A DNA stretch of 64,000 bases from Antedon mediterranea (lineage: Eukaryota; Animalia; Echinodermata). The position numbers and the translations under genes were made by a program. The notes beneath the pieces are model-generated. The model was not told the DNA's origin, made no database searches, and saw only the letters and a list, made by a program, of their open reading frames with translations. Positions 19,951 through 57,596 of this stretch are shown in pieces. The stretch's first letter is position 1; each line of letters opens with the position of its first letter. The DNA is taken from assembly GCF_964355755.1 (NCBI RefSeq), contig NC_092676.1, forward strand, positions 6,425,888 through 6,489,887. Direction: 5' to 3'.

Positions 19951-20077
19951 AAAAAAAAATAATAATAAAGATTTCATACAATAACAATAGGTGATCATTT
20001 TATTCTAAATGATCACCTAATAATAAAGATTTCATACAATAACAATAGGTGATCATTTTATTCTAAATGATCACCTA
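19951..20077 (-). repeat. Stack 1: two orphan subfamily-A 5' caps
   Basis: Two tandem copies of AAAGATTTCATACAATAACAATAGGTGATCATTTTATTCTAAATGATCACCTA. Confidence 0.92.
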
Positions 20078-23194: not shown

Positions 23195-24782
23195 ACTAGA
23201 CATGTAACTCGTCACTTTGACGAGTTAGTTATCCGCACGACAAACGCCACGTGCACGTCATACGTTAGAATATTGCACAGAGAAAAAATTATGGCATTAT
23301 GACTTGATCTGAAGAATATGATATGTTGTTAGTGCTGAATTCTGTCAATTTTGTGTCATATAGTATATACATGCAAACAGTATAATCTGTATACATGTTA
23401 CATACAGTGTAGAATAGGTGAAATCACGGGACCCGCCATTTATTCAAATTTGTAACATGGCGACGGTATCAAGATGAAACACTAAGATAGCAATTTCGGA
23501 AGCAAATTATCTCAGCAACAACATATTAACGTGTAGAAGAAATTTGAATACGTTTAATATTGATGCGCGCTCTTTTAAATATAATGAACTATGATGCAAA
23601 AGATGAAAATACGACTTTTTTTATTTAACTTGCAATATGATGACGTCACAGCATCTGATTGGCAAAATGTTCACATGATTTCATATCTACAATCCAAGAG
23701 CTTCCAGAAAATGTTTTAATCGTGATTATCACATTTTATTTTGACGGGCTATTACAGATTAAAATTTACTGTAAAGATGAAATTAATGACCCACGTAATT
23801 AAAATTTTTAGGCATGATGACGTCATAAAAATTAAAATATTTTTATCTCATGCGAAAGATAGTTGATTGACCTAGACAATATTAAAATCTCGGAGAAAAA
23901 GAAATACGTATAAGCGTGATGCGCTCCATTGAATGTGATGAGCAATAACGAAAGACAAAAAAATTCTATATTTTACATTCGTGTGGCCATATGATGACGT
24001 CACAACATCCGTGAGGTAAAAATTCTGCATGAATTCATATCTACAACATATCTGCTTACATATTAAGTTAAAAAAATTAGGGGTAATCGTTGATCCTGAG
24101 AAGCTATAAAACATTCAAAATAGGCATAATTTTGACAACATTTTGTAACTTTTTCAACTAAAACGCGCGCAAATGGGCTAAATCAACGTGTTCGTATGAC
24201 GTAATTTTAATTTGAAATGATGTCAATCTTTTTGAAAATGACTAGGAAAGGCTGGAAAATCACAATTCAAGAGAAAAAAACATGATTTTCATGCTCTATA
24301 CGCACCGTGCGCGTAATATTTTTCGCGCGCGCGGTAATTTTGTACATGCTTAAAATGACATGAAACGCGTAGAAAGTTGATTAGAAATTATTTTTGCGCA
24401 TTTTGAAATTTTAAATGCGCGTGCGCGCGTAACTTTGTGTAAAACACGCAATTTTTTTCAAACAGAAAGTTAGCGCATGATATAAATTAAACTTTCACAA
24501 AGTGTCAATTAAAAATCACTTTTAGTTTTTAATCTATGATCAATCATAAAAAATCATAAAATCGCGCGTAAGTCACGTTGCGCAACTCTGACGTAATTCA
24601 AAAATAGGAGGTGCACAACTTCACGTAAATGCCCACATGTTGTCAAAGTTATAAAATGTTATGTTTACACATTTTAGAGAAACGCTCTACACAAAAATAG
24701 CGAGAAAGAAAGAAGAATAATACAGAAAAAAATATTGATCCCATACAATAACAAGGAGTTATCCGCCAAGTGCGGATAACTA
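23195..24782 (-). mobile_element. HINE subfamily B1 unit 13 (complete)
   Basis: Cap GAGTTATCCGCcaagtGCGGATAACTA; 13-bp subTIR TAGTTATCCGCAC; apparently identical to the unit 12 body. Confidence 0.9.
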
Positions 24783-26376
24783 ACTAGACATGTAACTCGT
24801 CACTTTGACGAGTTTGGTTATCCGCCGCGCAAGTGGTGCAACATTAACATTAAGGGGATAGGTTGAGGACAAAAGGAAGTGTTCACGTTGGCATTATGAC
24901 CTGAACTGAAGAATATGATGTGTTGTTATTGCTGAATTTTATTATTTAAATTCATATATAGTATACACAGTATAATCTGTATCCATATCACATACAGTGT
25001 AGAATAGGTGAAATTACGGGACCCGCTATTTATTGCAATTTTTAACATGTTGACGGTTTTAAAATGAAACGCGAAGGTAGCAATTCCGAAAGGAAATTAT
25101 CTCAGCAACAACGTATTAGCGTGTAGAAGAAATTTGAATACGTGAAATATTGATGCGCGCTCTTTTAAATGTAATGAATTATGACGCAAAAGATGAAAAT
25201 ACGACCTTTTTTATATAACTGGCCATATGATGACGTCACAACATCCGATTGGCAACATTTTTACATAATTTCGTATCTACAATCCAATAGCTTCCAGAAA
25301 AAGTTTTAATCGTGATTATCACATTTTATTCTTATGAGCTATAACAGATTAAAATTTACTGTAAAGATGAAATTAATGCCACACGTGATTTAAATTTTTA
25401 GGCATGATGACGTCAAAAAAATTAAAATATTTTTAACTCCTGCGAAAGATACTTGATTGACCTAGACAATATCAAAATCTGGGTGAAAATGGAAAACGGA
25501 TAAGTGGAGAAGCGCTCTATTCAATGTGATGAGCTATGACGAAAGGTACAAAAATCCTAAATTTTATATTCGCGTGGCCATACGATGACGTCACAATGTC
25601 CGGTTAGCCATATTAATACCTGATCCGATATCTATAACTCATCTACTTCCAGAATATGCCATCCACAAAAAGTTGACCGTCTAGTTTAGAAATTACGACT
25701 GTTTAAAAAAAGGCATATTTTAAACAAATTTTTTAACCTTTTCTTAAAAAACGCGCGCAAATTGTCCAATTCGACGTGCTCGTATGACGTATCTTTAAGT
25801 CGAAATTGTTTAAAATTTGGTAAAATTACTAGAAAAGGCTGGAAAAATATAAATCACGCGAAAAAAATACGTTTTCAATGCTACGTGCGCACCGCACACG
25901 TAAAAATGTGCGCACGCGTTGGAATTTTTGACATGCTTAAAACGACATGAATCGCGTAGAAAGTTGATTATAAATTAATTTTGCGCATTTTGAAATTTTA
26001 AATGCGCGTGCGCGCGTAACTTTGTGTAAAACACGCAATTTTTTTTCAACAGAAAGTTAGCGCATAATATAAATTAAACTTTTGCAAAGTTTCAAGTTGA
26101 AATGTTATTTGGTTGTCGAGCTATGTTAAATACGACAAAATCGTTAAATCGCGCGTAAGTCACGTTGCGCAATTGTAAACATCATGAAAAGCTTCGCTGC
26201 ACATCTTCATGTGCATGACGATATGTTGAGAAAGTTACAAAATGTTATGTTTGCAAGTTTTAGAGAAAAGCGATCCACAAAAATCATACAGAAAGAAAGA
26301 AGACAAATAAAAAGTTGATGTTGATGATTTCGTACAATCACAAGAGGTTATCCTGCAACTTCGTTGCGGATAACCA
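24783..26376 (-). mobile_element. HINE subfamily B2 unit 14 (complete)
   Basis: subTIR TGGTTATCCGC; cap GGTTATCCtGCAACttcGTTGCGGATAACCA. Confidence 0.9.
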
Positions 26377-27903
26377 ACTAGACATGTAACTCGTCACTTT
26401 GACGAGTTTGGTTATCCGCCGCGCAAGTGGTGCAACATTAACATTAAGGGGATAGGTTGAGGACAAAAGGAAGTGTTCACGTTGGCATTATGACCTGAAC
26501 TGAAGAATATGATATGTTGCTGAATTTTATTATTTAAATTCATATATAGTATACACAGTATAATCTGTATCCATATCACATACAGTGACATACATAGAAT
26601 AGGTGAAATTACGGGACCCGCTATTTATTGCAATTTTTAACGTGTTGACGGTTTTAAAATGAAACGCGAAGTTAGCAATTCCGAAAGAAAATTATCTCAG
26701 CAACAACGTATTAGCATGTAGAAGAAATTTGAATACGTGAAATATTGATGCGCGCTCGTTTAAATGTAATGAATTATGACGCAAAAGATGAAAATACGAC
26801 CTTTTTTATATAACTGGCCATATGATGACGTCACAACATCCGATTGGCAACATTTTTACATAATTTCGTATCTAAAATTCAATAGCTTCCAGAAAAAGTT
26901 TTAATCGTGATTATCACATTTTATTCTTACGAGCTATAACAGATTTAAATTTACTGTAAAGATGAAATTAATGCCACACGTGATTTAAATTTTTAGGCAT
27001 GATGACGTCAAAAAAATTAAAATATTTTTAACTCATGCGAAAGATAGTTGATTGACCTAGACAATATCAAAATCGGGGTGAAAATGGAAAACGAATAAGT
27101 GGAGAGGCGCTCTATTCAATGTGATGACCTATGACGAAAGATACAAAAATCCTAAATTTTATATTCGTGTGGCCATACGATGACGTCACAATGTCCGGTT
27201 AGCCATATTAATACCTGATCCGATATCTACAACTCATCAACTTCCAGAATATGTCATCCACAAAAAGTTGACCGTGTAGTTTAGAAATTACGACTGTTTA
27301 AAAAAAGGCATATTTTTAACGGAATTTTGAACTTTTTCATCAAAAACACGCGCAAATTGTCCAATTCGACGTGCTCGTATGACGTAACTTTAAGTCGAAA
27401 TTGTTTAAAATTTGATAAAATTACTAGAAAAGGCTGGAAAAACATAAATCACGCGAAAAAAATATGTTTTCAATGCTACGTGCGCACCGCACACGTAAAA
27501 ATTTGCGCACGCGTGGGAATTTTTTACATGCTTAAAACGACATGAAACGCGTAGAAAGTTGATTAGAAATTAATTTTGCGCATTTTGAAATTTTAAATGC
27601 GCGTGCGCGCGTAACTTTGTGTAAAACACGCAATTTTTTTTCAACATAAAGTTAGCGCATGATATAAATTAAACTTTTGGAAAGTTTCAATTTGAAATGT
27701 TATTTGGTTTTCGACCTATGTTAAATACGAGGAAATCGTTAAATCACGCGTAAGTCACGTTGCGCAATTGTAAACGTCATGAAAAGCTTCGCAGCACATC
27801 TTCATGTGCATGACGATATGTTGAGAAAGTTACAAAATGTTATGTTTACAAGTTTTAGAGAAAAGCGTTCCACAAAAATCATACAGAAAGAAAGAAGATC
27901 AAG
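26377..27903 (-). mobile_element. HINE subfamily B2 unit 15 (cap probably displaced to 57478-57542)
   Basis: B2 3' end and body; broken at GAAGATCAAG|ACTAG. Confidence 0.85.
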
Positions 27904-29438
27904 ACTAGACATGTAACTCGTCACTTTGACGAGTTAGTTATCCGCACGACAAACGCCACGTGCACGTCATACGTTAGAATATTGCACACAGAAAAAATTA
28001 TGGCATTATGACCTGATCTGAAGAATATGATATGTTGTTAGTGCTGAATTCTGTCAATTTTGTGTCATATAGTATATACATGCAAACAGTATAATCTGTA
28101 TACATGTTACATACAGTGTAGAATAGGTGAAATTACGGGACCCGCCATTTATTCAAATTTGTAACATGGCGACGGTATCAAGATGAAACACTAAGATAGC
28201 AATTTCGGAAGCAAATTATCTCAGCAACAACATATTAACGTGTAGAAGAAATTTGAATACGTTTAATATTGATGCGCGCTCTTTTAAATATAATGAACTA
28301 TGATGCAAAAGATGAAAATACGACTTTTTTTATTTAACTGGCAATATGATGACGTCACAGCATCTGATTGGCAAAATGTTCACATGATTTCATATCTACA
28401 ATCCAAGAGCTTCCAGAAAATGTTTGAATCGTGATTATCACATTTTATTTTGACGGGCTATTACAGATTAAAATTTACTGTAAAGATGAAATTAATGACC
28501 CACGTAATTAAATTTTTATGCATGATGACGTCATAAAAATTTAAATTTTTTTATCTCATGCGAAAGATAGTTGATTGACCTAGACAATATTAAAATCTCG
28601 GAGAAAAAGAAATACGTATAAGCGTGATGCGCTCCATTGAATGTGATGAGCAATAACGAAAGACAAAAAAATCCTATATTTTACATTCGTGTGGCCATAT
28701 GATGACGTCACAACATCCGTGAGGTAAAAATTCTGCATGAATTCATATCTACAACATATCTGCTTACATATTAAGTTAAAAAAATTAGGGGTAATCGTTG
28801 ATCCTGAGAAGCTATAAAACATTCAAAATAGGCATAATTTTGACAACATTTTGTAACTTTTTCAACTAAAACGCGCGCAAATGGGCTAAATCAACGTGTT
28901 CGTATGACGTAATTTTAATTTGAAATGATGTCAATCTTTTTGAAAATGACTAGGAAAGGCTGGAAAATCACAATTCAAGAGAAAAAAACATGATTTTCAT
29001 GCTCTATGCACACCGTGCGCGTAATATTTTTCGCGCGCGCGGTAATTTTGTACATGCTTAAAATGACATGAAACGCGTAGAAAGTTGATTAGAAATTATT
29101 TTTGCGCATTTTGAAATTTTAAATGCGCGTGCGCGCGTAACTTTGTGTAAAACACGCAATTTTTTTCAAACAGAAAGTTAGCGCATGATATAAATTAAAC
29201 TTTCACAAAGTGTCAATTAAAAATCACTTTTAGTTTTTAATCTATGATCAATCATAAAAAATCATAAAATCGCGCATAAGTCACGTTGCGCAACTCTGAC
29301 GTAATTCAAAAATAGGAGGTGCACAACTTCACGTAAATGCCCACATGTTGTCAAAGTTATAAAATGTTATGTTTACACATTTTAGAGAAACGCTCTACAC
29401 AAAAATAGCGAGAAAGAAAGAAGAATAATACAGAAAAA
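27904..29438 (-). mobile_element. HINE subfamily B1 unit 16 (cap displaced to 36425-36476)
   Basis: Broken at AATACAGAAAAA|ACTAG. Confidence 0.88.
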
Positions 29439-30964
29439 ACTAGACATGTAACTCGTCACTTTGACGAGTTTGGTTATCCGCCGCGCAAGTGGTGCAACAT
29501 TAACATTAAGGGGATAGGTTGAGGACAAAAGGAAGTGTTCACGTTGGCATTATGACCTGAACTGAAGAATATGATATGTTGTTATTGCTGAATTTTATTA
29601 TTTAAATTCATACATAGTATACACAGTATAATCTGTATCCATATCACATACAGTGTAGAATAGGTGAAATTACGGGACCCGCTATTTATTGCAATTTTTA
29701 ACATGTTGGCGGTTTTAAAATGAAACGCGAAGGTAGCAATTCCGAAAGGAAATTATCTCAGCAACAACGTATTAACGTGTAGAAGAAATTTGTATACGTG
29801 AAATATTGATGCGCGCTCTTTTAAATGTAATGAATTATGACGCAAAAGATGAAAATACGATCTTTTTCATTTAACTGGCCATATGATGACGTCACAACAT
29901 CCGATTGGCAACATTTTTACATAATTTCGTATCTACAATCCAATAGCTTCCAGAAAAAGTTTTAATCGTGATTATCACATTTTTTTCTTACGAGCTATAA
30001 CAGATTAAAATTTACTGTAAAGATGAAATTAATGCCACACGTCATTTAAATTTTTAGGCATGATGACGTCAAAAAAATTAAAATATTTTTAACTCATGCG
30101 AAAGAAACTTGATTGACCTAGACAATATCAAAATCGGGGTTAAAATGGAAAACGGATAAGTGGAGATGCGCTCTATTCAATGTGATGAGCTATGACGAAA
30201 GATACAAAAATCCTAAATTTTATGTTCGCGTGGCCATACGATGACGTCACAATGTCCGGTTAGCCATATTAATACTTGATCCGATATCTAAAACTCATCT
30301 ACTTCCAGAATATGTCATCCACAAAAATTTGACCGTCTAGTTTAGAAATTACGACTGTTTAAAAAAAGGCATATTTTAAACGAATTTTTTAACCTTTTCA
30401 TAAAAAACGCGCGCAAATTGTCCAATTGGACGTGCTCGTATGACGTATCTTTAAGTCGAAATTGTTTAAAATTTGGTAAAATTACTAGAAAAAGCTGGAA
30501 AAACATAAATCACGCGAAAAAATACGTTTTCAATGCTACGTGCGCACCGCACACGTAAAAATGTGCGCACGCGTGGGAATTTTTTACATGCTTAAAACGA
30601 CATGAAACGCGTAGAAAGTTGATTATAAATTAATTTTGCGCATTTTGAAATTTTATATGCGCGTGCGCGCGTAACTTTGTGTAAAACACGCAATTTTTTT
30701 TCAACAGAAAGTTAGCGCATGATATAAATTAAACTTTTTCAAAGTTTCAAGTTGAAATGTTATTTGGTTGTCGAGCTATGTTAAATACGACAAAATCGTT
30801 AAATCGCGCGTAAGTCACGTTGCGCAATTGTAAACATCATGAAAAGCTTCGCTGCACATCTTCATGTGCATGACGATATGTTGAGAAAGTTACAAAATGT
30901 TATGTTTGCAAGTTTTCGAGAAAAGCGTTCCACAAAAATCATACAGAAAGAAAGAAGAGAAATA
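29439..30964 (-). mobile_element. HINE subfamily B2 unit 17 (cap displaced to 36358-36424)
   Basis: Broken at GAAGAGAAATA|ACTAG. Confidence 0.88.
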
Positions 30965-32394
30965 ACTAGACATGAAACTCGTCACTTTGACGAGTTAGTT
31001 ATCCGCTCGACAAACGCCACGTGCACGTCATACGTTGGAATGTTGCACACAGAAAAAGATTATGGCATTATGACCTGAACTGAAGAATATGATATGTTGT
31101 TAGTGCTAAATTCTGTCTATTTTGTGTCATATAGTATATACATTTTAAAGTACACAGTATAATCTGTATACACGTAGGCCTAATTTAAATTTTTAGGCAT
31201 GATTATGTCATAAAAATTAAATATTTTTAACACATGCATAAGATAGTTGATTGACCTAGACAATATTAAAATCTCGGAGAAAAGGGAATACAGATAAGCG
31301 TGATGCGCTCCATTTAATGTGATGAGCAATAAACGAAAGAGACAAAAATCATATATTTTACATTCGTGTGGCCATACGATGATGTCACAATGTCCGGTTA
31401 GCCATATTGATTAATGATCCTATATCTACAACTCATCACCTTCCAGAATATGTAAGTAAAAAAAAGTTTACCTCGTAGTTTAGAATCTATGATTGTTTAA
31501 AAAAAGGCATAATTTTGACGAATTTTTGAATTATTTCTTTAAAAACACGCACAAATTGTATAATTCGACGTGCTCGTATGACGTAATTTTAAGTCTAAAT
31601 TGTTTTAAAATTTTATAAAATTACTATAAAAGGCTGGAAAGACATAATTCACGCAAAAAAAGATGTTTTTAGCGCTACGTGCGGACCACGCGCGTAAAAT
31701 TGTTCGCGCGCGTGGGAATTTTTGACATGCTCAAAATGTCATGATCAGCGTAGAAAGTTGATTAGAAATTAATTTTGCGCATTTTAAATTTTAAATGCGC
31801 GTGCGCGCGTAACTTCGTTTAAAAAATGCCATTGTTAGTGCACAAAAAGTTAGCGCAAGATATAAATTAAACTTTTGCTAAGTTTCAACTTACATAGTTA
31901 TATGGTTTTCAATCTATGTTGAATACGGGAATTTCATAAAATCACGCGTAAGTCACGTTACGCATTTCTGACGTCATTCACAATAGTAGGTGCACAACTT
32001 CACGTGAATGCCCATATGTTGACAAAGTTATGAAATGTTATGTTTACACATTTTTTATATAAGCGAGACACAAAAATAGAGGAGAAATGCGCGTGCGCGC
32101 GTAACGTCTTGTAAAACATGGGATTTTTAATCCACAAAAAGTTTGCCTTTGATATGACTTAAATTTTCAGAAAGTGTCAAAATAAAATTATGCTTGGTTT
32201 TTAGCCTATGATCAATCATAAAAAATCATAAAATCGCACGTAAGTCACGTTGCGCAACTCTGACGTCATTCAAAAATAGGAGGTGCACAACTTCACGTAA
32301 ATGCCCATATGTTGACAAAGTTATGAAATGTTATGTTTACAAGTTTTTGAGATACGCGAGACACAAAAATGGAGGAGAAAGAAAGAAGAATAAT
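30965..32394 (-). mobile_element. HINE subfamily B3 unit 18 (no cap; ~400-bp deletion and ~290-bp duplication)
   Basis: subTIR TAGTTATCCGCT; deletion near 31175; AAATGCGCGTGCGCGCGTAAC block at 31793 and again at 32085. Confidence 0.85.
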
Positions 32395-33915
32395 ACTAGA
32401 CATGTAACTCGTCACTTTGACGAGTTAGTTATCCGCACGACAAACGCCACGTGCACGTCATACGTTAGAATATTGCACACAGAAAAAATTATGGCATTAT
32501 GACCTGATCTGAAGAATATGATATGTTGTTAGTGCTGAATTCTGTCAATTTTGTGTCATATAGTATATACATGCAAACAGTATAATCTGTATACATGTTA
32601 CATACAGTGTAGAATAGGTGAAATTACGGGACCCGCCATTTATTCAAATTTGTAACATGGCGACGGTATCAAGATGAAACACTAAGATAGCAATTTTGGA
32701 AGCAAATTATCTCAGCAACAACATATTAACGTGTAGAAGAAATTTGAATACGTTTTATATTGATGCGCGCTCTTTTAAATATAATGAACTATGATGCAAA
32801 AGATGAAAATACGACTTTTTTTATTTAACTTGCAATATGATGACGTCACAGCATCTGATTGGCAAAATGTTCACATGATTTCATATCTACAATCCAAGAG
32901 CTTCCAGAAAATGTTTTAATCGTGATTATCACATTTTATTTTGACGGGCTATTACAGATTAAAATTTACTGTAAAGATGAAATTAATGACCCACGTAATT
33001 AAAATTTTTAGGCATGATGACGTCATAAAAATTAAAATATTTTTATCTCATGCGAAAGATAGTTGATTGACCTAGACAATATTAAAATCTCGGAGAAAAA
33101 GAAATACGTATAAGCGTGATGCGCTCCATTGAATGTGATGAGCAATAACGAAAGACAAAAAAATCCTATATTTTACATTCGTGTGGCCATATGATGACGT
33201 CACAACATCCGTGAGGTAAAAATTCTGCATGAATTCATATCTACAACATATCTGCTTACATATTAAGTTAAAAAAATTAGGGTAATCGTTGATCCTGAGA
33301 AGCTATAAAACATTCAAAATAGGCATAATTTTGACAACATTTTGTAACTTTTTCAACTAAAAAGCGCGCAAATGGGCTAAATCAACGTGTTCGTATGACG
33401 TAATTTTAATTTGAAATGATGTCAATCTTTTTGAAAATGACTAGGAAAGGCTGGAAAATCACAATTCAAGAGAAAAAAACATGATTTTCATGCTCTATGC
33501 GCACCGTGCGCGTAATATTTTTCGCGCGCGCGGTAATTTTGTACATGCTTAAAATGACATGAAACGCGTAGAAAGTTGATTAGAAATTATTTTTGCGCAT
33601 TTTGAAATTTTAAATGCGCGTGCGCGCGTAACTTTGTGTAAAACACGCAATTTTTTTCAAACAGAAAGTTAGCGCATGATATAAATTAAACTTTCACAAA
33701 GTGTCAATTAAAAATCACTTTTAGTTTTTAATCTATGATCAATCATAAAAAATCATAAAATCGCGCGTAAGTCACGTTGCGCAGCTCTGACGTAATTCAA
33801 AAATAGGAGGTGCACAACTTCACGTAAATGCCCACATGTTGTCAAAGTTATAAAATGTTATGTTTACACATTTTAGAGAAACGCTCTACACAAAAATAGC
33901 GAGAAAGAAAGAAGA
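32395..33915 (-). mobile_element. HINE subfamily B1 unit 19 (cap displaced to 36292-36357)
   Basis: Broken at GAAAGAAGA|ACTAG. Confidence 0.88.
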
Positions 33916-35067
33916 ACTAGATTTGAACTCGTCACTACGGACGAGTTAGGTTATCCGCAGCGCAAAGGCCACGTGCACGTCGTACGTTAAAATATTGCGC
34001 GCAGAAAAACGATTAAGTAATTGAAACAATTTCAGCGTGCTCTTTATTTTTCGTCACGTCTGAGTATATACGGTATACACTATATACCGTATACGTACTA
34101 CATACAGTGCAGAATAGGTGAAAATAAGTGACCAAAGTTATTGACGCTTTTGAACATGATGACGTCATCACAATTTTTAAAATGGTGAATCGTGCGAAAG
34201 ATAATTGATAGACCTAGACAACATAAAAAAAATGGGGGGAAATGGAATACAAATAAGTGGAGATGCGCTATATTAAATGTGACGAGCTACGAGGAAAGAG
34301 ACAAAAATCCTATATTTTATATTCGAGTGGCCATATGATGACGTCAAGATGTCCGGTTAGCCATATTGATGCATGATTTGATATCTGCAACTCATCTACT
34401 ACCAGAATATGTAATTACAAAAAAGTTCACCACGTAGTTTAGAATTTATGACTGTTTAAAAAAAGGCATAATTTTGACTAATTTTTGAATTTTTCATCAA
34501 AAATGTGCGTAAATTGTTTAATTCTACGTGCTCGTATGACGTGATTTTAAGTCGAAATTGTTTGAAAGTTGGTAAATTTTCTTAAAAAGACAGGAAAAAC
34601 AAAAATCAAGCAAAAAAATGATGTTTTTGCGCTACGTGCGCACGTGCGCGTAAAAAAATTGCGCAAGCGTGGGAATTTTTCAAATGCTCAAAATGACATG
34701 AAACGCGTAGAAAGTTGATCAGATATTGATTTTTCGCATTTTGAAATTTTAAACGTGCGTGCGCGCGTAACTTTTTGTAAAACATGCCATTTTTAGTCCA
34801 TAGAAAGTTTGCGCATTATATGACTTAAATGTTCACCAAGTTTCAATACAAAATGAATTTTAGTTTTTAATCTATGATCAATCATTGAAATTCGTAAAAT
34901 CGCGCGTAACTTACGCTGCGCGACTCGAAATTTGAAAAAAAAGTTTCTTGCACATCTACAGCTACAGGGCAATCTTATGACAAAGTTATACAATCTTATG
35001 TTGGCTAGAATTAGAGATACGCTGCCCACAAAAAATGGGAGAGAAGTGTGGAAAGAAAGAAATAAAT
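33916..35067 (-). mobile_element. HINE subfamily D unit 20 (short form, no cap)
   Basis: ACTAGATTTG-AACTCGTCactacgGACGAGTT-AGGTTATCCGCA; lacks one ~360-bp internal period. Confidence 0.87.
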
Positions 35068-36291
35068 ACTAGATTTGAACTCGTCACTACGGACGAGTTA
35101 GGTTATCCGCAGTCCTAAAGCCACGTGCACGTCATACGTTGGAATATTGCGCGCAGAAAAACGATTATGCCATTGAAAAAATGTGAGTGCGCTCTCTATT
35201 TTGTGTCACGTCAAAGTGTATACGGTATACACTATATACCGTATACGTACTACATACTGTTCAGAATAGGTGAAAATAAGTGACCAAAGTTATTGACGCT
35301 TTTGGACATGATGACGTCATCACAATTTTTAAAATGGTGAATCGTGCGAAAGATAATTGATAGACCTAGACAATATAAAAAAAATGGGGGGAAATGGAAT
35401 ACAAATAAGTGAAGATGCGCTATATTAAATGTGACAAGCTACGAGGAAAGAGACAAAAATCCTATATTTTATATTCGAGTGGCCATATGATGACGTCACA
35501 ATGTCCGGTTAGCCATATTGATGCATGATTTGATATCTGCAACTCATCTACTACCAGAATATGTAATTATAAAAAAGTTCACCACGTAGTTTAGAATTTA
35601 TGACTGTTTAAAAAAAGGCATAATTTTGACTAATTTTTGAACTTTTTCATCAAAAATGCGCGTAAATTGTTTAATTCTACGTGTTCGTATGACGTGATTT
35701 TAAGTCGAAATTGTTTGAAAGTTGGTAAATTTTCTAAAAAAGACAGGAAAAACAAAAATCAAGCAAAAAAATGATGTTTTTGCGCTACGTGCGCACGTGC
35801 GCGTAAAAAAATTGCGCACGCTTGGGAATTTTTGAAATGCTCAAAATGACATGAAACGCGTAGAAAGTTGATTAGATATTGATTTTTCGCATTTTGAAAT
35901 TTTAAACGCGCGTGCGCGCGTAACTTTTTATAAAACATGCCATTTTTAATCCATAGAAAGTTTGCGCATTATATGACTTAAATGTTCACCAAGTTTCAAT
36001 ACAAAATGAATTTTAGTTTTTAATCTATGATCAATCATTGAAATTCATAAAATCACGCGTAACTTACGCTGCGCAACTCCGAAATTGTCCAAAAGCTTGG
36101 CTGCACATCTACAGCTACAGGTCAATCTTATGACAAAGTTATACAATGTTATATTTGCCAGAATTAGAGATATGCGACCAACAAAATTCGTGGAAAGAAA
36201 GAAGAACAAAGAAAAAGAAAAAGAAAAAAAAAAAAAAAAAAAAAAAGATCCTGACAATAACAAGGGGTTATCCGCCAAGTGCGGATAACCA
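35068..36291 (-). mobile_element. HINE subfamily D unit 21 (complete)
   Basis: D-type 3' end; cap GGTTATCCGCcaagtGCGGATAACCA. Confidence 0.88.
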
Positions 36292-36476
36292 ATAATACAG
36301 AAAAAAATATTGATCCCATACAATAACAAGGAGTTATCCGCCAAGTGCGGATAACTAAAAAGTTGATGTTGATGATTTCGTACAATCACAAGAGGTTATC
36401 CTGCAACTTCGTTGCGGATAACCAAATATTGATCCCATACAATAACAAGGAGTTATCCGCCAAGTGCGGATAACTA
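36292..36476 (-). repeat. Stack 2: three orphan 5' caps (B1, B2, B1)
   Basis: Sequences match the caps of complete units 13 and 14. Confidence 0.92.
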
Positions 36477-37854
36477 AATAGTATGCCTTCTACTGTTCCT
36501 AACTATAGGGGGAGAAGGTTTGAAAATAAAACTAACTTCTTTTAGACCAAATGAGCGAACAACTGTATCCACACAACCTTGCTTTCCAAAAATCACCTCT
36601 TTTATCAACGCATTATTCCTCCTGGTTAGTTATGTCCAATGACATTATTTGTGTGTCCACTTTTGTAACCAGACACGTCAATGGGAATAGGTCCAAAATG
36701 TTGCATGCCACTCAGTCTTTCAAGATGTTTTTCTTACAAATGTTCTTAGTACCCTCATCACTAGGAAGGACATATCCTGACCTGCACAAAAAATATGTAA
36801 TATCTACAAAACAAACATGTAAATACATCACATTAATATTTATGAAAATACACTAATTATTAACCATTTATCAATTTTCAATTGCAGAATTCCCATGTCT
36901 GGATTATTTTGGCTCTAACGGCCGCCCGTAACCTTGGTCATCCGGGGTGTGGTATTTGCTTATTGTAAGCGAGACAATTATATTCATACTACTTTGGCTG
37001 TTCCTGTTAAATAAAGTTTTAATATAAATCTAAGGATTATATCGCAGTCTCCTACTAATATTGGTAAGTAATAGCCAGGTGCATAGTGGGGGTAAGTAAT
37101 ATTTATAGTACAGATCCTATTGAATTTGAATTGAACCTACTACAGCTTCCAGATAATCCACACACGCTTAGGAGAAATCAGGAAATGGCCGACAAGATGC
37201 AGGCCGGACTGACCTACATATTGAGTCAGGCACAAACTGGTAACGCTAGCTAGACGTTCGGGCTATAATATTTGTAAGGTCGAGTCATTTGTGACAACAA
37301 TAAAGACTGAACGCGTGTACCTAAATCAATTTGAGGTATAATTGGGCCCCCAAACGGAAAATAAGGTTGAGCTTTTCAAGTTTGTGATAAGGTATGTATT
37401 CATTTGACATCATCAGTTATCGGGGAAATAGAGAGAAAAAGTGACTCGCCGGCGTATGAAACCGTAGCGGGTGTAAATTCATTACAAACCATTCACGCTA
37501 GCCAATTTCCTATGTATATACACGGGAATCATGGCTTCGCCTTCCCATAACTGTTGTTGTCAATCTCATAAATTGGGTTGTCTTTGTATAGTGACATGTG
37601 AGGTACATTTCCCATAAACACCTGCTGACTTCTCCTAAATTGAATTGGCTTACTATGGCAACTTGGATTTCCGAAGTTCAATATTAATATTATTATTCAC
37701 AGACCGAGAATAAGTCATGGACTTTTCCAAACAGAAATATGTACATGGTGTAGTTATTACCGATGTTACATATGTATGTTCCGCTTAAGACAGATGGTCA
37801 AGGCACCTGTTATACAAAATAAAGACATATTGTTATTAACAATGACAACACTAT

Positions 37855-38441
37855 ATTATTACAGTAACGGACGACGAAGCCCTAACAAAATACAATGCAA
37901 TCCGTGGTAAGGTCGTGCCTCTGCCTACCTAGCTATATAGTAAAGTATACATTACAGGGCTGCTATCTAATATAGGCATATCTAGGAACAGTATATAATT
38001 CGAACCTAATTCAAATGATAACAATAAAGACTGGTGCATTGTATTGCCTATTTCAAATTGTTATGCACTGATGCACCTTACTCAATCAATTTTTTCCTTG
38101 TGTGTGTTTGATTTGTGCAGTGTAAGTACTTTACTTTGATAGTATGGACAGTTCTTAACATACACAATCAACACCGCACAACATGACTTTATATAAGTGG
38201 ACAAAATGACAAAACCCACAGTATCATCATCAACATTATTATTATTGTAGTATTTCATTACAGTAACAGACCAAGCTCTAACAAATAACATAAAAAACCG
38301 TGCTAGGGACATGCCGCGGCTACCTAACCAGATAGTACGGTATACAGTAAACGCCTGATACTTAACATATAAAGGCCTACCTAGGTACAGTGCACATTTA
38401 AAACATGTCGTAATTCAATTTAAATAACAATAAAGACTGGT
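37855..38441. repeat. Diverged ~185-bp direct duplication (37855-38035 / 38255-38441)
   Basis: ATTACAGTAAC...CCGTG...CTACCTA...ATAACAATAAAGACTGGTG occurs twice, ~400 bp apart. Confidence 0.65.
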
Positions 38442-39212
38442 GGTCATAATGTCATAACATATTTCTTTGTGCAATATTCCAACGTACATCGATTATTCTC
38501 TCTTTCGTTATTGTTCATCACATTTAACAGAGCTCATCTTGCTCATACGTATTCCATTTGCGCGAGATTTTAATATTGTCTACGTCATTCAACTATCTCT
38601 CGCATGAGTTAAAAATATTTCTTTTCTTATGACATCATCATGTCTAAAAATGAAAATAACTTGGGTCACTTGTTTTCAAATTTGAAATAACTTTCAATAT
38701 GTTAGCTCGTCAGAATCAAAAGTGGTAATCATCATTAAAACGTTGTTTGAAAGCTATTGGATTGCAGATACGAATTTATGTAATTATTTTGCCTATGAGT
38801 AGTTTATTCATCTTTGTCGTCAAAGTTATACACATTTCAAAGAGCGCTCACAGCGCTTCTTGGTGCCAAATTCTCTTCCAATTCTTATATTTATTTGCTC
38901 AATTCATTGTCTTTCGAAATTGTCATCTTCGAGTTTATTTTGATAATTCTATCATACAAAACAATTAGAACATGACGTGTGTCCCTAATTTCACCAATGC
39001 TACACTGTATATAGATATACAGTATATACTGTACATAACGTATATGGCATATCAGTAGGCACAACTGAGCACTACAAGCGTATAATGGGATGGCATACAT
39101 CTACATTTTCCGATTGTATGTTGACGTACGTGTATATCTAAACATATTAATGTCAATAAAATTAGAAAAATGATCACCTACAATTCGTCAAACTGACGAA
39201 TTAAATTCTAGT
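38440..39212 (+). mobile_element. Degenerate HINE fragment in opposite orientation with an A-type 3' end
   Basis: Ends AAATGATCACCTAC-AATTCGTCAaacTGACGAATT-AAATTCTAGT; the upstream part is the reverse complement of A/B bodies. Confidence 0.85.
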
Positions 39213-41424
39213 TTATCTTCTTATTGGTAAGTGAGATATAAACATTTTACATGTTCTTACCACTTGTGGTTGAAAGTCCATAAAGTATTCAGTGAACTGA
39301 TACTTGCAATAGACTCGTTATTTTTCTTTCAGATTGTATGAAATAGTAATTGATTGACTGCTTGCTGCCTGCTAGCATTACTGCTAAATCAGATGTACAG
39401 TTTGATTTATTTGGAACTATCTAAATAGTGTAAGTAAATGTTGTTTCACCAATTTACAATTACACAGGAATTGAGTGTTTAATTATTTCTATAGACTCAA
39501 TTAGGCATTCAATTCCACTGTGTGAGAAAAAATAGATTGTATTGAATTGGCACTTTACCTAATTATGTTTTGTCATTTTGAGAACATTCCTTACTTATTC
39601 AAATCTTGTTTGAAAAGCGTGTGGTATTGGCAATTTGTAACGCTGCTAGTGCATCGTATTTGGTTATTTTAAATGTGTTCGAACCGATACACCTTATTAT
39701 TATGTTGTTTTCCCCTTGCAGTTGTTTGATTGGTGCAGTGGAATTACTGTATGTTGATAGTACGGTGAGTTTCACAGATATACAGTCAACTTTGCCTAAG
39801 CTGACTTTGAATAAGTCGCAAAAGTCAAATATCTTCAAGGTAGCAATTCCTTCCTATAGTTTACCATGTTGCATTAGTATGATTGGTTTTTATGCATTGT
39901 TTACAAGACGTCAAATGTATTGTCTTTCAGTTTGTTGTATTTCTGACATCTAAACGAGAAGTTTACACCAGTTCAAATCCCGTAAGTGTAAGAATCCAAC
40001 AAATTAGTCGTTCTTCAAACTTCCCTTTATCTACAATTTCTGAAAATTTGTACAAGGAATACATGTTACTGTTAAAATATAACATCAGGTCATATGGCAT
40101 GTTTAAGATAGCAACAGACCAATGTTTCGTACAGTAATTCTCGTCAAACAGCCTCTACTTGACAGGCCTTTTTAATCTTCCTTCTGAGCCTATAAAATAT
40201 ATCAGTTATTTTAAAGTTTCCTTCAGGTTTTTAGTGGCACTTAACAGATCATGATTTAGTAAAAGGCAAATATGATAAATGTACTAAAAGTACTTGTATG
40301 TATAGGACTATTGTAGTATTATAATGTTGCTCTAATGACCTAAATAATGAATAAGATAATACACTCTGGCATTACTGTAATTTTGATACTTCTTATACCA
40401 CGATAACAATTTACGATAAATAGCTAAACATGTTATTTATAGAACACCTCCACATTGTAAATGATGAGGCCTATGGCATGGTACATAAATGTGGCACATA
40501 CAATTTATTGATATTATTGTGCTACTCCATTCCCATCGCGAGACTGGTGGCTTTGTTTTCAACTAATATTATTATTGAGTTTTTTTTCAGTTGCATTTAA
40601 TCATTGGGGATTGTTGACATTATATTTGGCTATTAACTTTGGTTCCGTTAAACCTTACAATTCTGTTGTTTTTCATTTGCAGTTGTTAATGTTTGATTAG
40701 TGTACTTGGCACGACTGTACGTTATTGTGATTACAGTAGAAAGGTACGGTAATATTAGTATGGTTCACATTGTTAGAATATTAGGTACAGATCGTGTATT
40801 GTGTTTAAATAAACGGCCTGCAGCATTTTAAACTTATAAAAAGGAGCGTTTATTAGCGGTGAACTGTACAGTCATACATAGGGCTTTCAAAGCCTAAATA
40901 CCAAGGTGCGTCGCAGAAAGTCACAATCAAACGTCATCATTTCCATACCAAACTACTTACTGCACCTAATTAACCCAACCAGGCCTACTAGATGAGCATT
41001 TCTATTGAATTACTACATCCTATGGTGTATCGACTTGTTTTTCAAGACCACATGACAAAGACTACATCAAAATAAGCGCTCACCGTTATTACCTTATCAC
41101 AGCTGCACAACACCGGGACTTCCTGTCCTGCCTATTATTTGTAAACAGGAGAATCCTATATTTATTAGGTATGCATGGACTGTTATACGCCAATAACATC
41201 AAAAATGGAGGAGGGAAGGTGTGGCGTTTATAAGACCCTTCAGTTTCTTTGGTCATAATGAAAATGGTACTTCAAATTTCATTATCATATTTCAACATTG
41301 TTTTATAAAGGTGGTTTAGATACTGTAGGTGAGGTACATCATTAGGGACTGCTGCATTGTATTTGGCTATGAAAAATTAGTTTGCACGGAAACATCTAAT
41401 TATTCCGTTCTTTTTCCCTTACAG

Positions 41425-41456
41425 GTGTGTGACTCGTGCAACGGAAGTTTGATACG
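41425..41456 (+). other. Candidate 32-nt 5'UTR exon of the RepHel transcript
   Basis: Polypyrimidine acceptor TTCTTTTTCCCTTACAG| and donor |GTAAGT. Confidence 0.4.
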
Positions 41457-42309
41457 GTAAGTGTACGAAATACAGGCAATTTCACCTTTACCTAACTTTG
41501 CTTAAGTCCCATATTTGCAAAGGCCACATTTCTTTCTAATTACCAATTCCTTACTGCAGTTTACCTTTCACAGTATATAATTATCGCCTGTAGGAGGACC
41601 ATGCTTAAAGTAGTTATTAACTAAACTGAATTCAATATTCTAAACCTATGTATAACGTTTGTATCTTGCGAACGGGGACATCAATTTGATTTACTATAAC
41701 AAATAAGCAATAAATATAGAAAAATATCTACGGTATCTATTATACACTGTATACCTTACATTTCAAATTGTCATGATAAAACAATACAATATAAATAATT
41801 GTGTGTTGTGTAATAATAATAAACCTATATGAAATAAATAAAACAAGTCTCAAGTGCTTACCAAAGAGATGTCTGCGTAACAAGTGAAGCTATAGCTATA
41901 GCTCAATTACTGTGATTACTACTGTACTAATAACCTTCTAAGTAACCCATAGTACAACTACCATTTCTATTGGTGGTCAGCCAACTTTAGGCTTCAAAGT
42001 AGCCCTTTTATGTTTACGTGAGCCTAAGCTACCTACACCCACATTAACATAACACATATGGTTGGCCACTTGCCCACTCGACACCCTTCAATTGATCCAA
42101 CCACAAACTACGGCTTGGATTGTCACTTTCACAATGTTAAATAAACCAAATTGATTATTGTTTTCATTTTATTTTCCAGTTTTGAAAACCCGATCTGCCA
42201 AACTTTGGAAGACACAGCACACATAACCACAATTAAAGCCAACTAAATATAGAAAATAAACAAAACCATACATACAAATTAATTACAAGTTAATACAAGT
42301 AAATACAGT

Positions 42310-42620
42310 ACAAGTGAAGACAAAGTGAACAAAGAAAAACTGAACAAAGAAAACTGAACACAGAAAAAGTGAACACAGAAAAAGTGAACATAGAAAAAGT
42401 GAACATAGAAAAAGTGAACATAGAAAAAGTGAACATAGAAAAAGTGAACATAGAAAAGTGAACATAGAAAAGTGAACATAGAAAAGTGACCATAGAAAAG
42501 TGAACATAGAAAAGTGAACATAGAAAAGTGAACATAGAAAAGTGAACATAGAAAAGTGAACATAGAAAAGTGAACATAGAAAAGTGAACATAGAAAAGTG
42601 AACATAGAAAAGTGAACAAA
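42310..42620. repeat. 14/15-bp minisatellite (AAAAGTGAACATAG)n
   Basis: About 20 tandem copies upstream of the ORF. Confidence 0.95.
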
Positions 42621-42629
42621 CTACAGAAA

Positions 42630-42870
42630 GAGTGAGCAAATTTTCCGAACAAGTGAACTAATTTTCCGAACAAGTGAACTAATTTTCCGAACAACTGAAC
42701 TAATTTTCCGAACAAGTGAACTAATTTTCCGAACAAGTGAACTAATTTTCAGAACAAGAGAACTTATTTTTAGAACAGTGAACTAATTTTCCGAACAAGT
42801 GAACTAATTTTTAGAACAGTGAAATAATTTTTAGAACAGCGAACTAATTTTTAGAACAAGTGAACTATCT
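42630..42870. repeat. 20/21-bp minisatellite (AACAAGTGAACTAATTTTCCG)n
   Basis: About 11 tandem copies sharing the AAGTGAAC core with the adjacent array. Confidence 0.93.
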
Positions 42871-42979
42871 TTTGTAGCCATACGTAACGATTTTTTATAG
42901 CATTTTACAGAATAAATAAATTAGTAATTGTTATAGAATTTGACACAAATTTGTGGTCTTGATTATTATACATACAGTA

Positions 42980-45900
42980 ATGGATACACAATTGATAACT
43001 GTTGTTGTTACTATGTTGTTTTTAATGTTGTTGTTAATGATGTGGTGTTTATGTACAAACCATAAAGACGTTACAAGTAAAGAGTACAACAACGACAACA
43101 CACCTGGTAAAGTTAATAATAGCATTATATATAAAACCGAGGTTACAGATGTACCCGATCAATGCTGTTTACCTACAAATGTCAAAAACGTAAGCACTCT
43201 CAACATGGACGAAAAAGATACACATACTGACATTTGTGAATTCATTAAAAAAATAGTTGATGACATCGTAAATGTTTCTTCTGGTACAGCGGTCGCCTCT
43301 GAGTTTAAGAAATGTGGCTTATGTAATATTGAATATATTGCAGATGAAAATTATGTGTCATGTGATTGTTGCAGTAAGTTTTACCATGTGACATGTGTAA
43401 GACAAATGTTTGAAGGCAAACTCTGTGATTCAAGAGTAATTTGGATCTGTTCGATGTGTGGAAATAGTAATTTTGCAAATAATATGTTGGGTGAGATAGG
43501 TATTGCGTGTCATTTTAATAGGTATATGATTCTAGAACATGATGAATCTAACGCTAAGTTTGAAGAATTTACGGAAAATGAACAGAATTGGAAGTCCAAC
43601 CAACGGAATGTAACAAAGACTAACACCAACTCACAATGCCAACAAACAGAAAGTGAAAATTCACTTGGTAGAGAATGGATTAAGGTAAGATCCAGGAAAA
43701 ATACCAGTAACAGAAAACAAGGGGGAAAAAAAAGAGGAAATAAGAACAGAAAAAAGCGTGTTATAAATGGTATAATTATTGAACTAGGTGTAACATATAT
43801 TGGTAAAGCTGTCAACGATTTCTATGAAAAACGAAACAAGAAACTGCATGAAAATGTGGATAGAGAAAAAATTCCAGACAATTCACAAACAATACTTAAT
43901 GAAAAGGTAGATGTTGATGTACATAGCCCTACGAGTGATGCTTCAGAAGTGACAACAATAACGAACACAATACAACAACTTTCTGGTGGTGGATTTAACA
44001 CGAAACAGCCACGGAAAAAAGGTCGTTTTGTCAAAAGGTCAAATAAAAAGAAATCACAAGAGGATAATGATAACCATAAAATGGATGAAGACATAAGTAA
44101 AAGTTTTATTTCAGATCACTTGGGTAATGATGACAATTCAAAAGTAATATGCAATGAAGACAACGTCTACAAAGTAGCTAGTGATGAACCAAAGAGTAAT
44201 AGCAAAATAAATCAACTAAGATTAGATAGTAGTTGTGATGTTACAGATCATGAAGTATTAATAATTGACGAGGAACAAACAAAAACATCCAAGGAAACAA
44301 TTAGGGAGAATACACGACCTACAAATAATTTTAAACAATATAATATGAATGATGATAACAGTGTCGATATTAAAGTTTCAACCAATGAATGCAAAATATC
44401 TGATGATAATACGAAAAACGTTGCGTCATTTAAGCAATACAAAAGTGTTGTAAACCCATGTAATAGTATTACTAATAATAGAACTATAGCACAGGGTAGT
44501 TTTAATCAAGGGCATTCTAGATTTGGCTATGCACGTGGTAAACAGTGTGTTGCAAATAGTCTTGTAGCTATTGTTTATTCAACAAAGAGGAATGGAAATG
44601 AATTTTATAAAAATGATCTTGACACAATATTGACACTTGGAAATGAGTTGTACTATTATATCCAAAAAGATTCCACTATGGATGAGGATCTTCTGATGAT
44701 TTCTGAACTGCCGAAAAAATTGGATATGTTAGATAGCAAATTTTTAATATCTCCCAAAGAATCAGTGTTTGGGATAATAGATGGGAGTCTTGAATCGATG
44801 GCTGAATATGGAGCCTTGTCATTAAAGCAAGCTCTTGAACAAGAATTACATCAACATGATGCCTGTTTCATGAATTTTAACAGAAGTACATTTGCTATTA
44901 TTAAACGTGTAAATGGTTTCCTTATATTTGATCCACATGCAAGAGATTGTGTTGGTTGTGTTAGTGAACATGGAAAGAGCATTTTAATTTATAGTACATC
45001 TTGGCAAGGTGTATACAGTTATTGTTTAAAGTTAGCAAGATCAATGAATTGTAATTTACATGAAACAGAGTTTGAACTGACGGGTGTAAATGTTCAAAAT
45101 GAATCTATGTTTTTATGTTCCTCTTCTTCTGTCACGTTAGATGATAATTGTGAACTAAACAACTCTGAAAATTGCGATGTTAATGCACCGGGTACATCTT
45201 CCCAGTTTAAATGTAGCAAAACATTACCTAACAACAATATTGATTCTACAATTAAAGACAACAAACATAGTAATAAAAAGGATGATGTTTCAACAAGTAA
45301 TGGATGTCAAACTGATGACGAAATTGAAATAGTTAATGTTCAGTATGGAGAGAGACCTGACAAGAATTTTAAATTTGTCCCAATTTTAGAAGCACAAAGG
45401 AAAAGTATGTGTCATAAAGTTGGCATTAATTGTGAACATACCGGTAGAAATTGTGGTATTAATCGAACAAGTCATATTGGACATCCTTGTCAAATTAAGA
45501 ATATTACGGGTGATGGTAATTGTTTTTATCGTGCAATTTCATATATTATTTCTGGGACTGAAAATAATCATTTAATTTTAAGAAAAGCAATTGGTAATCA
45601 TTTATTGGAAACTGACGACTTGTTTAGTAGTACATTAAGTGTGGAATATAGAACAGTTATGGAATATGTGATTAAAAAAAGAGTAATGGATAATGGAACA
45701 TGGGCTTCTAATACTGAAATAAGTGCAATGGCAAACTTGCTTAATACAGATATTTATTCATTCAATGATCAGCTTTTGACTTGGCAAATGTTTTCTGCAA
45801 AAAACCCTGGAAAAATTAATGAGGTTACAACTGACAACGGTATGTATATTCTATACACCAGAAATGTGCATTTTAATGTAGTGGAGTCTGTTGATTTCAA

Positions 45901-57477: not shown

Positions 57478-57596
57478 AAAAAGATGATGTTGATCTCGTA
57501 CAATCACAAGAGGTTATCCTGCAACTTCGTTGCGGATAACCAAAAATATTGATCCCATACAATAACAAGGAGTTATCCGCCAAGTGCGGATAACTA
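57478..57596 (-). repeat. Stack 3: two orphan 5' caps (B2, B1)
   Basis: Match the caps of complete B2 and B1 units. Confidence 0.92.

What the first reader, a model, noticed from the sequence alone, without database searches (positions are those of the whole stretch)
36247..36476. Cap stack 2: base-exact last-in-first-out closure and insertion chemistry
The order D, B1, B2, B1 mirrors open units 21, 19, 17, 16. Assigning one terminal A to each end of the insert restores intact sequence exactly: unit 19 GAAGA|ATAATACAG; unit 17 1+4=5 A before GTTGATG; unit 16 5+2=7 A before TATTGATCCC. Each insertion therefore adds exactly two A/T, meaning either T...CTAGT ends with no TSD or a TT duplication. 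Target positions vary within a ~15-nt window.
Basis: seen in the sequence. Interest (0 to 1): 0.75.

Follow-up and report, generated by a model that had tools for sequence, protein, structure and literature searches.

The report
Helentron transposons nested in their heads
The four short repeats here are the front ends of small non-coding rolling-circle-type transposons whose bodies lie upstream in exactly reversed order, a pattern best explained by copies repeatedly jumping into a T-rich stretch just inside an older copy's front end; self-insertion is already known for this transposon group, so this is a very clean example rather than a new system.

Summary
Observation confirmed and extended. 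The four caps at 36247-36477 are the 5' palindromic ends of minus-strand non-autonomous Helentrons (HINEs). They close bodies 21, 19, 17, 16 last-in-first-out. Removing exactly two A restores intact sequence for hosts 19, 16, 17, and also for host 12, closed 21 kb later. All 16 small-element caps parse as balanced brackets over a 55-kb nest containing an intact 3061-aa RepHel-endonuclease ORF.

Corrections: units 18 and 20 have no cap. A TT duplication is contradicted by 7 of 22 single-T 3' junctions. The likeliest chemistry is an unlisted third option, TT...CTAG ends inserted before a host T, which circle sequencing cannot tell from T...CTAGT. One empty site in another sample does not fit the +2 rule.

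Seven of 7 closed nested insertions fall 52-69 nt from the host's 5' end, in its most T-rich tract; sequence preference versus transposase tethering is unresolved. T-rich targets, no TSD and self-insertion giving multiple 5' ends are published (Thomas 2014; Chellapan 2016). This scan noted similar nests in three other genomes. Raw reads of the source were not available.

The parts
36247..36292 (-). 5' end (cap D) of unit 21: terminal TT plus palindromic subterminal repeat; innermost element, continuous with its own body
36293..36358 (-). displaced 5' end (B1) of unit 19, 66 nt
   Evidence: exact rejoin to 33916 against unit 13
36359..36425 (-). displaced 5' end (B2) of unit 17, 67 nt
   Evidence: rejoin to 30965 with 1 mismatch in 35 nt against unit 14
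36426..36477 (-). displaced 5' end (B1) of unit 16, 52 nt
   Evidence: exact rejoin to 29439 against unit 13
35069..36246 (-). body and 3' end (subTIR, stem-loop, CTAG) of unit 21, type D, with a long T-tract inside the cap
33917..35068 (-). unit 20, type D, no cap anywhere in the window
32396..33916 (-). open body of unit 19 (B1)
30966..32395 (-). unit 18, mosaic B-like body, no cap anywhere in the window
29440..30965 (-). open body of unit 17 (B2)
27905..29439 (-). open body of unit 16 (B1); its 3' end also serves as the 3' end of the composite with the 21-kb segment (inferred)
26378..27904 (-). open body of unit 15 (B2 variant)
23196..26377 (-). intact reference units 13 (B1, 23196-24783) and 14 (B2, 24784-26377), joined end to end, nested in unit 12
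21662..23195 (-). open body of unit 12 (B1), outermost B host; identical to unit 13 over 1500 nt
36478..57478 (-). 21-kb segment E ending in its own 5' cap (first 12 nt identical to B1); its own 3' end is not in the window
42953..52138 (+). uninterrupted 3061-aa Helentron transposase ORF (Herpes_teg_N, OTU, DUF6570, HUH Rep, PIF1 helicase, AP endonuclease), antisense to the cap-to-CTAG polarity
57479..57597 (-). cap stack 3: displaced 5' ends of unit 15 (B2 variant, 65 nt) and unit 12 (B1, 54 nt)
19907..20078 (-). cap stack 1: 5' ends of units 10 (C), 9 (A) and 7 (A)
4090..59127 (-). whole array: 22 same-orientation 3' ends, 17 caps

Best explanation
The cap stack is the set of 5' ends of four minus-strand non-autonomous Helentrons whose bodies lie upstream in reverse order, likely produced by successive whole-element insertions, each into a T-rich tract 52-69 nt inside an older copy's 5' end. 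Shown: the HINE anatomy, the bracket order, a net gain of two T, one shared orientation, and an intact RepHel-endonuclease ORF in a segment sharing the B1 terminal repeat. Inferred steps: (1) RepHel nicks at the 5' TT, copies one strand and ends at the 3' hairpin-CTAG, probably through a circle with junction CTAG-TT. (2) The strand is transferred into a target bond before a T, so both extra T belong to the element's 5' end and nothing is duplicated (about 0.6; T...CTAGT about 0.25, 1-bp duplication about 0.1, TT duplication about 0.05). (3) Each element carries the best local target just behind its own 5' hairpin, so newcomers split off a 52-69-nt head; others land at the junction itself and give end-to-end units. 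(4) Nests can move as composites: segment E plus unit 16 has two 5' ends and one 3' end.
For: Balanced parse of 16 of 16 small-element caps by type. Two-A excision is exact for hosts 19, 16, 12 and has 1 mismatch for 17; other counts fail. Crossing the pairings for 12 and 16 would need 0 and 4 A. 8 of 8 end-to-end junctions carry two A, 17 of 17 caps are followed by at least two A, and 22 of 22 3' ends have at least one. Seven distinct insertion points fall within 52-69 nt, against about 1e-13 if all T on both strands were equal targets. The tract is the most T-rich 30-nt window on either strand in 9 of 9 capped units examined. Pfam domains and the Helentron-diagnostic FYR...GSPHxH motif are present (criteria from PMC4067079). 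Contigs of another sample show the intact B1 context, cap-to-cap joints in other orders, and other DNA upstream of 36478. Helraiser is cut at the flank/5'-TC boundary, joins CTAG to a host T, and prefers AT-rich DNA at the 3' flank (PMC4778049). Proto-Helentron has 5' TT and 3' CTAG ends (PMC4067079).
Against: Six bodies have no cap (1, 2, 4, 8, 18, 20), which needs an extra event. The unit 15 rejoin matches no intact reference, and its remnant fits unit 17 slightly better (8 against 9 edits). The external empty site at 36478 has one A where the filled site has three, so +2 with a host T after CTAG does not hold there. The B1 A7 run has a minority A8 variant in other copies, so homopolymer references are not fixed. 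Segment E's own 3' end is absent, so its role as mobiliser is inferred. The placement of the two T cannot be read from genomic sequence. No raw reads of the source allele were seen.
Confidence: 0.8

Rival explanations
1. Same nesting, but targeting is active: RepHel bound at a resident element's 5' hairpin recruits the incoming element, so position and orientation are set by the hairpin and not only by T content.
For: All 22 array units share one orientation although the opposite strand offers windows almost as T-rich (17-19 T of 30 against 19-28). Eight insertions sit exactly at a terminus, where the 3' flank has only 7-9 T of 25. For A-type hosts even steep T-weighting gives at most 0.24 for the zone. 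Units 12 and 13 are identical over 1500 nt, against 9-12 substitutions for other B1 pairs.
Against: Steep T-richness weighting alone puts 0.7-0.9 of B-host insertions in the zone. T-rich targeting is general for HINEs (PMC4067079, PMC7492417). Helraiser showed no local hopping (PMC4778049).
Confidence: 0.35
2. The two extra T are a TT target-site duplication around an element that ends in CTAG.
For: Hosts 19, 17, 16 and 12 all have at least two A on both sides, so these four cannot exclude it.
Against: 7 of 22 3' junctions have a single T (units 2, 3, 5, 9, 16, 19, 21); the four A' junctions may be one event, leaving at least four independent cases. Single-strand HUH transfer makes no staggered cut (PMC5876387). 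No TSD was found for HINEs (PMC4067079, PMC7492417).
Confidence: 0.05
3. The array arose from rolling-circle concatemers or unequal crossing-over, and the caps were piled up by template switching or slippage.
For: Tandem Helitron arrays are attributed to rolling-circle replication (PMC11934779; PMC5876387). E's cap has a 40-nt tandem duplication.
Against: Neighbours at the 8 end-to-end junctions are only 65-96% identical, not copies of one monomer. Neither process yields reverse order with base-exact complementary break points at different offsets.
Confidence: 0.07
4. Misassembly of a repeat-rich region.
For: No raw reads of the source were seen, and no contig spans the stack.
Against: Exact complementarity across 1.5 to 34 kb is not expected from collapse errors. 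Cap-to-cap joints exist in another sample's contigs. One 55-nt contig matches the last cap-to-flank junction without differences, though with 25 and 30 letters on the two sides it falls short of the tool's 31-letter bridging rule.
Confidence: 0.03

Closest known systems
HINE / DINE-1 non-autonomous Helentrons and Helentrons (Thomas, Vadnagara and Pritham 2014, PMC4067079; text parts 1-4 of 8 and passages read)
   Same: Palindromic subTIR 2-4 nt from the 5' end, 3' subTIR plus stem-loop, T at both termini, T-rich targets, no TSD, RepHel fused to an AP endonuclease, ORF sometimes reversed (Helentron-Da-40).
   Different: Here the 3' end is an invariant CTAG, the 3' subTIR is closer to the end than the 38-60 bp reported for mite HINEs, and the T gain is two in 4 nested and 8 end-to-end cases, whereas the paper reports variable counts. 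Deep self-nesting is not described in the parts read.
FoHeli (Helitron2) elements with multiple 5' termini, Fusarium (Chellapan 2016, PMC5148889, passages and section 10; PMC13342296, passages)
   Same: Stacks of short 5' ends (31-85 nt; up to five) explained by self-insertion; composites with two 5' ends and one 3' end; reversed ORFs; circles.
   Different: There the nest is a model inferred from derived copies. Here the nest survives with every displaced head matched to its body, across five small-element subfamilies, six closed levels deep.
Maize Helitrons with multiple termini (Dong 2011, PMC3288121, passages)
   Same: Multiple termini explained by nested Helitrons; preferential insertion near other Helitrons.
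   Different: Canonical HLE1; their internal 3' ends lack an intact CTAG, whereas internal CTAG ends are intact here.
Helraiser (PMC4778049, PMC5876387, passages)
   Same: CTAG-3' joined to a host T, hairpin terminator that can be bypassed, circles with precise end junctions, AT-rich 3' flank preference; used as the chemical model.
   Different: HLE1 with 5' TC, A|T target, no subTIRs or endonuclease, and no local hopping seen.
Double insertion as a source of tandem TEs (bioRxiv 10.1101/158386, passages)
   Same: Head-to-tail tandems formed by independent insertion at one site.
   Different: Concerns TSD-making elements side by side; here no TSD, and many insertions are inside the previous copy.

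Membership tests
HINE (non-autonomous Helentron) | palindromic subTIR 2-4 nt from the 5' end | tested here: met
   hairpin of -9 to -12 kcal/mol starting at nt 2-3 in the 6 small units folded, -7.8 in E
HINE (non-autonomous Helentron) | matching subTIR near the 3' end followed by a stem-loop | tested here: met
   22 of 22 3' ends listed with stem-loop; matching subTIR visible in the 6 units printed
HINE (non-autonomous Helentron) | T at both termini, T-rich or TT target | tested here: met
   17 of 17 caps with at least two T outside, 22 of 22 3' ends followed by T; nested 3' flanks 15-21 T of 25 against background 9.3
HINE (non-autonomous Helentron) | no target-site duplication | tested here: inconclusive
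   TT duplication contradicted; a 1-bp T duplication cannot be excluded from genomic sequence
HINE (non-autonomous Helentron) | non-coding, with an autonomous partner sharing at least 11 bp of subTIR | tested here: met
   only short ORFs (at most 114 aa) in the units; segment E shares its first 12 nt with B1 and 80-86% identity over 1.35 kb. A-type units have a different subTIR and no partner in the window
Helentron (HLE2 subgroup b) | Rep (HUH) + PIF1 helicase + C-terminal AP endonuclease in one ORF | tested here: met
   Pfam Helitron_like_N 5e-36, PIF1 1e-27, Exo_endo_phos 6e-9
Helentron (HLE2 subgroup b) | diagnostic F/Y-x-R and G-S-P in Rep motif 2; DUF6570 | tested here: met
   motif at residues 1863-1877; DUF6570 2e-20; criteria
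Helentron (HLE2 subgroup b) | full-length element with both termini | tested here: not met
   no 3' terminus of E found in 36477-56000; E is filed only as a 5' part inside a composite
Helentron (HLE2 subgroup b) | phylogenetic placement in the HLE2 clade | not tested
   no tree built
Helentron (HLE2 subgroup b) | rolling-circle transposition through circles | not testable with these tools
   needs circle PCR or biochemistry
Canonical Helitron (HLE1) | 5' TC end, no subTIR, A|T target | tested here: not met
   5' ends are TT(A/G)G with subTIRs; only the 3' hairpin-CTAG is shared
TSD-making MITE / cut-and-paste element | symmetric TIRs and constant 2-bp duplication | tested here: not met
   asymmetric ends; 7 of 22 junctions lack the second T

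The most novel reading that the evidence does not exclude
These Helentrons are self-targeting by design: each carries a conserved landing tract behind its 5' hairpin, and hairpin-bound RepHel directs new copies of any subfamily into it or onto the terminus in one orientation. Satellite-like arrays then grow from within by insertion, not by concatemers or unequal crossing-over, and the cap stacks are a readable chronology of subfamily activity.
Probability: 0.3. Interest if true: 0.65.

Novelty: new member of a known kind. Interest (0 to 1): 0.38.

Why it matters
Helentron ends and target chemistry have been left open in print because T-rich flanks hide the boundaries (PMC4067079). A nest with intact sibling references fixes the net gain at two T in most cases and argues against a TT duplication, leaving one sharp biochemical question: is the nick before or between the two T? 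It also shows the intermediate that was only modelled for multiple-5'-end elements in Fusarium, and a route to kb-unit tandem arrays by insertion that repeat annotators would call satellite. The intact co-located transposase and very young B1 copies (at most 0.8% apart) make the system testable. It does not change the classification of these elements.

Tried and rejected
No whole genome is held for the window, so no genome-wide census of nested sites or paralogous empty sites was possible.

A search for E's own 3' terminus in 36477-56000 found none. The 24 letters that precede 36478 in the other sample are not in the window (0 matches at up to 3 mismatches). Frames of 45 aa or more in 36480-42300 were listed and none stood out by eye; they were not scanned against Pfam.

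Sequencing runs: 4 runs, one sample, one study, contigs only and about 1.4% different from the window in the flank. No record spans the stack, so homopolymer lengths and cap order of this allele remain unchecked; contig depth was not used as copy number.

Excision tests for A-type hosts 9 and 7 were set aside because intact A units differ in A-run length. Crossing assignments for 12/16 were rejected (they need 0 and 4 A). The crossing assignment for 15/17 cannot be rejected on sequence alone (13 against 11 edits), only on topology.

Rejected: TT duplication, single-monomer concatemer, misassembly (see rivals).

Literature: 8 searches gave no listing describing a last-in-first-out Helentron nest with matched heads. 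The library lacks most subscription papers, one maize paper was not held, and supplements of PMC4067079 (terminus tables, empty sites) and PMC5148889 (multiple-termini table) were not opened and may bear on novelty. Passages of PMC12001565, PMC11934779, PMC13085455 and PMC6581046 added no such case.

Scan look-ups by place and by sequence were empty.

Full report
What the window is. The DNA is AT-rich (27-37% GC) and has one long ORF; I infer a eukaryote, probably animal, genome. No whole genome is held. From 4090 to 59127 there are 22 units of 1.15-2.1 kb that begin, on the + strand, with CTAG, a stem-loop and a short conserved motif, and 17 palindromic 'caps'. Read on the minus strand each complete unit is TT, palindromic subterminal repeat, body, second subterminal repeat, stem-loop, CTAG. 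This is the anatomy given for HINEs, the non-autonomous Helentrons (PMC4067079). The caps are therefore 5' ends.

The observation. The four caps end at 36290, 36356, 36423 and 36475. Bodies fall into subfamilies by identity: 12, 13, 16, 19 (B1, 99-100%), 14, 15, 17 (B2, 96-98%), 20, 21 (D, 93%). I excised each insert in a script and compared the 35-nt join with intact units 13 and 14, removing 0 to 4 A. Hosts 19 and 16 match with 0 mismatches and host 17 with 1, only when two A are removed. In a 13 x 7 test of all open ends against all displaced heads, 6 of 7 heads have the last-in-first-out host as best partner. The exception is the head assigned to unit 15 (9 edits, against 8 for unit 17). 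A random order of the five B heads would match by type 1 time in 10 and exactly 1 in 120.

A stack parse closes 16 of 16 small-element caps on a body of the matching type. Units 15 and 12 close at 57541 and 57595, and host 12 again rejoins exactly with two A removed. The closed nest is six levels deep (12, 15, 16, 17, 19, 21). Between the two stacks lies a 21-kb segment (E) with an uninterrupted 3061-aa ORF: Herpes_teg_N, OTU, DUF6570, Helitron_like_N, PIF1, Exo_endo_phos, with the Helentron-diagnostic Rep motif (criteria). E ends in its own cap, whose first 12 nt equal B1's, and its adjoining 1.35 kb are 80-86% identical to B units. The ORF is antisense to the cap-to-CTAG polarity, as reported for Helentron-Da-40 and HLE2-reverse. 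E's own 3' end is not in the window. Six bodies have no cap: 1, 2, 4, 8, 18, 20. The finding passes over 18 and 20. They may be composites made by read-through of an inner 3' end (bypass is shown for Helraiser), or their caps may have been deleted against a like neighbouring cap; I cannot tell which.

Insertion chemistry. All 17 caps are followed by at least two A, all 22 3' ends are preceded by at least one, and 8 of 8 end-to-end junctions have exactly two. Seven of 22 3' junctions have a single A, which a TT duplication cannot give; four of them are A' junctions that may share an origin. Three models remain and give the same genomic sequence: TT...CTAG before a host T; T...CTAGT after a host T; one terminal T plus a 1-bp duplication. 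I favour the first (about 0.6). Helraiser is cut at the flank/5' boundary and joins CTAG to a host T, proto-Helentron is described with 5' TT and 3' CTAG, and single-strand transfer makes no duplication. This choice is inference by analogy.

Evidence from another sample. Four runs of one sample, contigs only, hold the stretch; in 36478-38400 they differ from the window at 26 listed positions. For the reading: loose ends in 3 of 4 runs show the intact B1 context upstream of 36291, and cap-to-cap joints occur in other orders (12 rows shown, 18 not shown), so stacking is not confined to this locus. One 55-nt contig matches the last cap-to-flank junction exactly, short of the tool's bridging rule. 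All 4 runs also hold other DNA directly upstream of 36478, at least 909 nt in two runs. That makes E plus unit 16 a composite with two 5' ends and one 3' end, the product modelled in Chellapan 2016 Fig. 7. Against the reading: that empty site has one A where the filled site has three, so either three T were gained or no host T followed CTAG there. Variable T counts are published. The B1 A7 run also has a minority A8 form (1-22% of laid depth). The +2 rule is the norm here, not a law.

Targeting. The seven closed nested insertions lie 52, 54, 58, 65, 66, 67 and 69 nt from the host's 5' end, each at a different bond. If every T on either strand were an equal target, seven of seven in that zone would have probability near 1e-13; the zone was chosen after the fact, which costs about two orders of magnitude. 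In 9 of 9 capped units examined the most T-rich 30-nt window on either strand starts at nt 44-63, and nested 3' flanks have 15-21 T of 25 against a background of 9.3. So each element carries its own best target. With steep weighting for T-richness the zone takes 0.7-0.9 of insertions in B hosts but at most 0.24 in A hosts. Sequence preference alone is therefore not excluded. The single orientation of 22 units, and eight insertions at termini with ordinary flanks, point to an added role for the resident end. The tract may also be partly a product of past insertions. The outermost 3' flank has only 9 T of 25.

Rivals. Single-monomer concatemers are ruled out by neighbours that are 65-96% identical at end-to-end junctions. 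Slippage or misassembly would not give complementary break points at seven different offsets in reverse order. Raw reads of the source were not available, so misassembly is argued against, not excluded.

What is known. HINE ends, T-rich targets and lack of TSD: PMC4067079 (parts 1-4 of 8 and passages) and PMC7492417 (passages). Multiple 5' ends by self-insertion: PMC5148889 (passages, section 10) and PMC13342296 (passages; up to five ends). Multiple termini from nested Helitrons in maize: PMC3288121 (passages). HLE2 classification: PMC11417382 (passages). Tandems by double insertion: 10.1101/158386 (passages). Eight searches showed no listing that describes an intact last-in-first-out Helentron nest; most subscription papers and the unopened supplements are outside that statement. 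This scan's own notes list three similar nests in other genomes; they are unchecked AI notes, seen after my reading was fixed, and are not counted as support.

Verdict. A real and unusually clean nest of HINEs with a co-located Helentron transposase: a new member of a known kind, showing directly a process that was modelled before. Interest 0.38; the bold reading, active self-targeting that builds arrays from within, has probability about 0.3 and would deserve 0.65.

Noticed in passing
21662-24783: Unit 13 sits inside unit 12's target tract and is identical to it over 1500 nt, while other B1 pairs differ by 9-12 substitutions: a local self-copy or gene conversion.
   Followed up: partly
6135-6180, 7690-7734, 10815-10859, 17065-17109: Four A' bodies end in the same ~45-nt sequence with an imperfect inverted repeat instead of a cap, each followed directly by another A-family unit with a single A; possibly an amplified composite or an alternative 5' end.
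   Followed up: partly
38440-39213: A fragment with an A-type 3' end in the opposite orientation inside segment E, mosaic of A- and B-like parts; the only reversed copy found.
   Followed up: partly
57390-57472: Exact 40-nt tandem duplication of part of E's cap.
   Followed up: no
54026-54704: Degenerate unit-like fragments (67-81% to array units) between the ORF and E's right arm; 41-nt inverted repeat at 54748-54788 and 55574-55614.
   Followed up: no
42276-42867: 14-nt and 21-nt minisatellites directly upstream of the transposase ORF.
   Followed up: no
4090-6180 and 30966-32395: Unit 1 has an internal duplication of about 0.55 kb; unit 18 is a mosaic with a duplicated ~0.3-kb block.
   Followed up: partly
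36194-36248: The target tract of unit 21 is expanded to a 39-nt A-rich run; D-cap-to-D-cap joints with short A spacers occur in another sample's contigs.
   Followed up: partly
10860-12443 and 20079-21661: Units 5 and 11 are 99% identical although 9 kb apart.
   Followed up: no
88-780, 3153-3592, 62302-62435: Unrelated minisatellites (20, 27, 134 and 21-nt periods) in the flanks.
   Followed up: no
A- and B-family termini: The two families have different subTIRs but share a GGT(G/T)ATC core and nearly the same 3' stem-loop, and nest in or abut each other, suggesting cross-recognition by one transposase family.
   Followed up: partly
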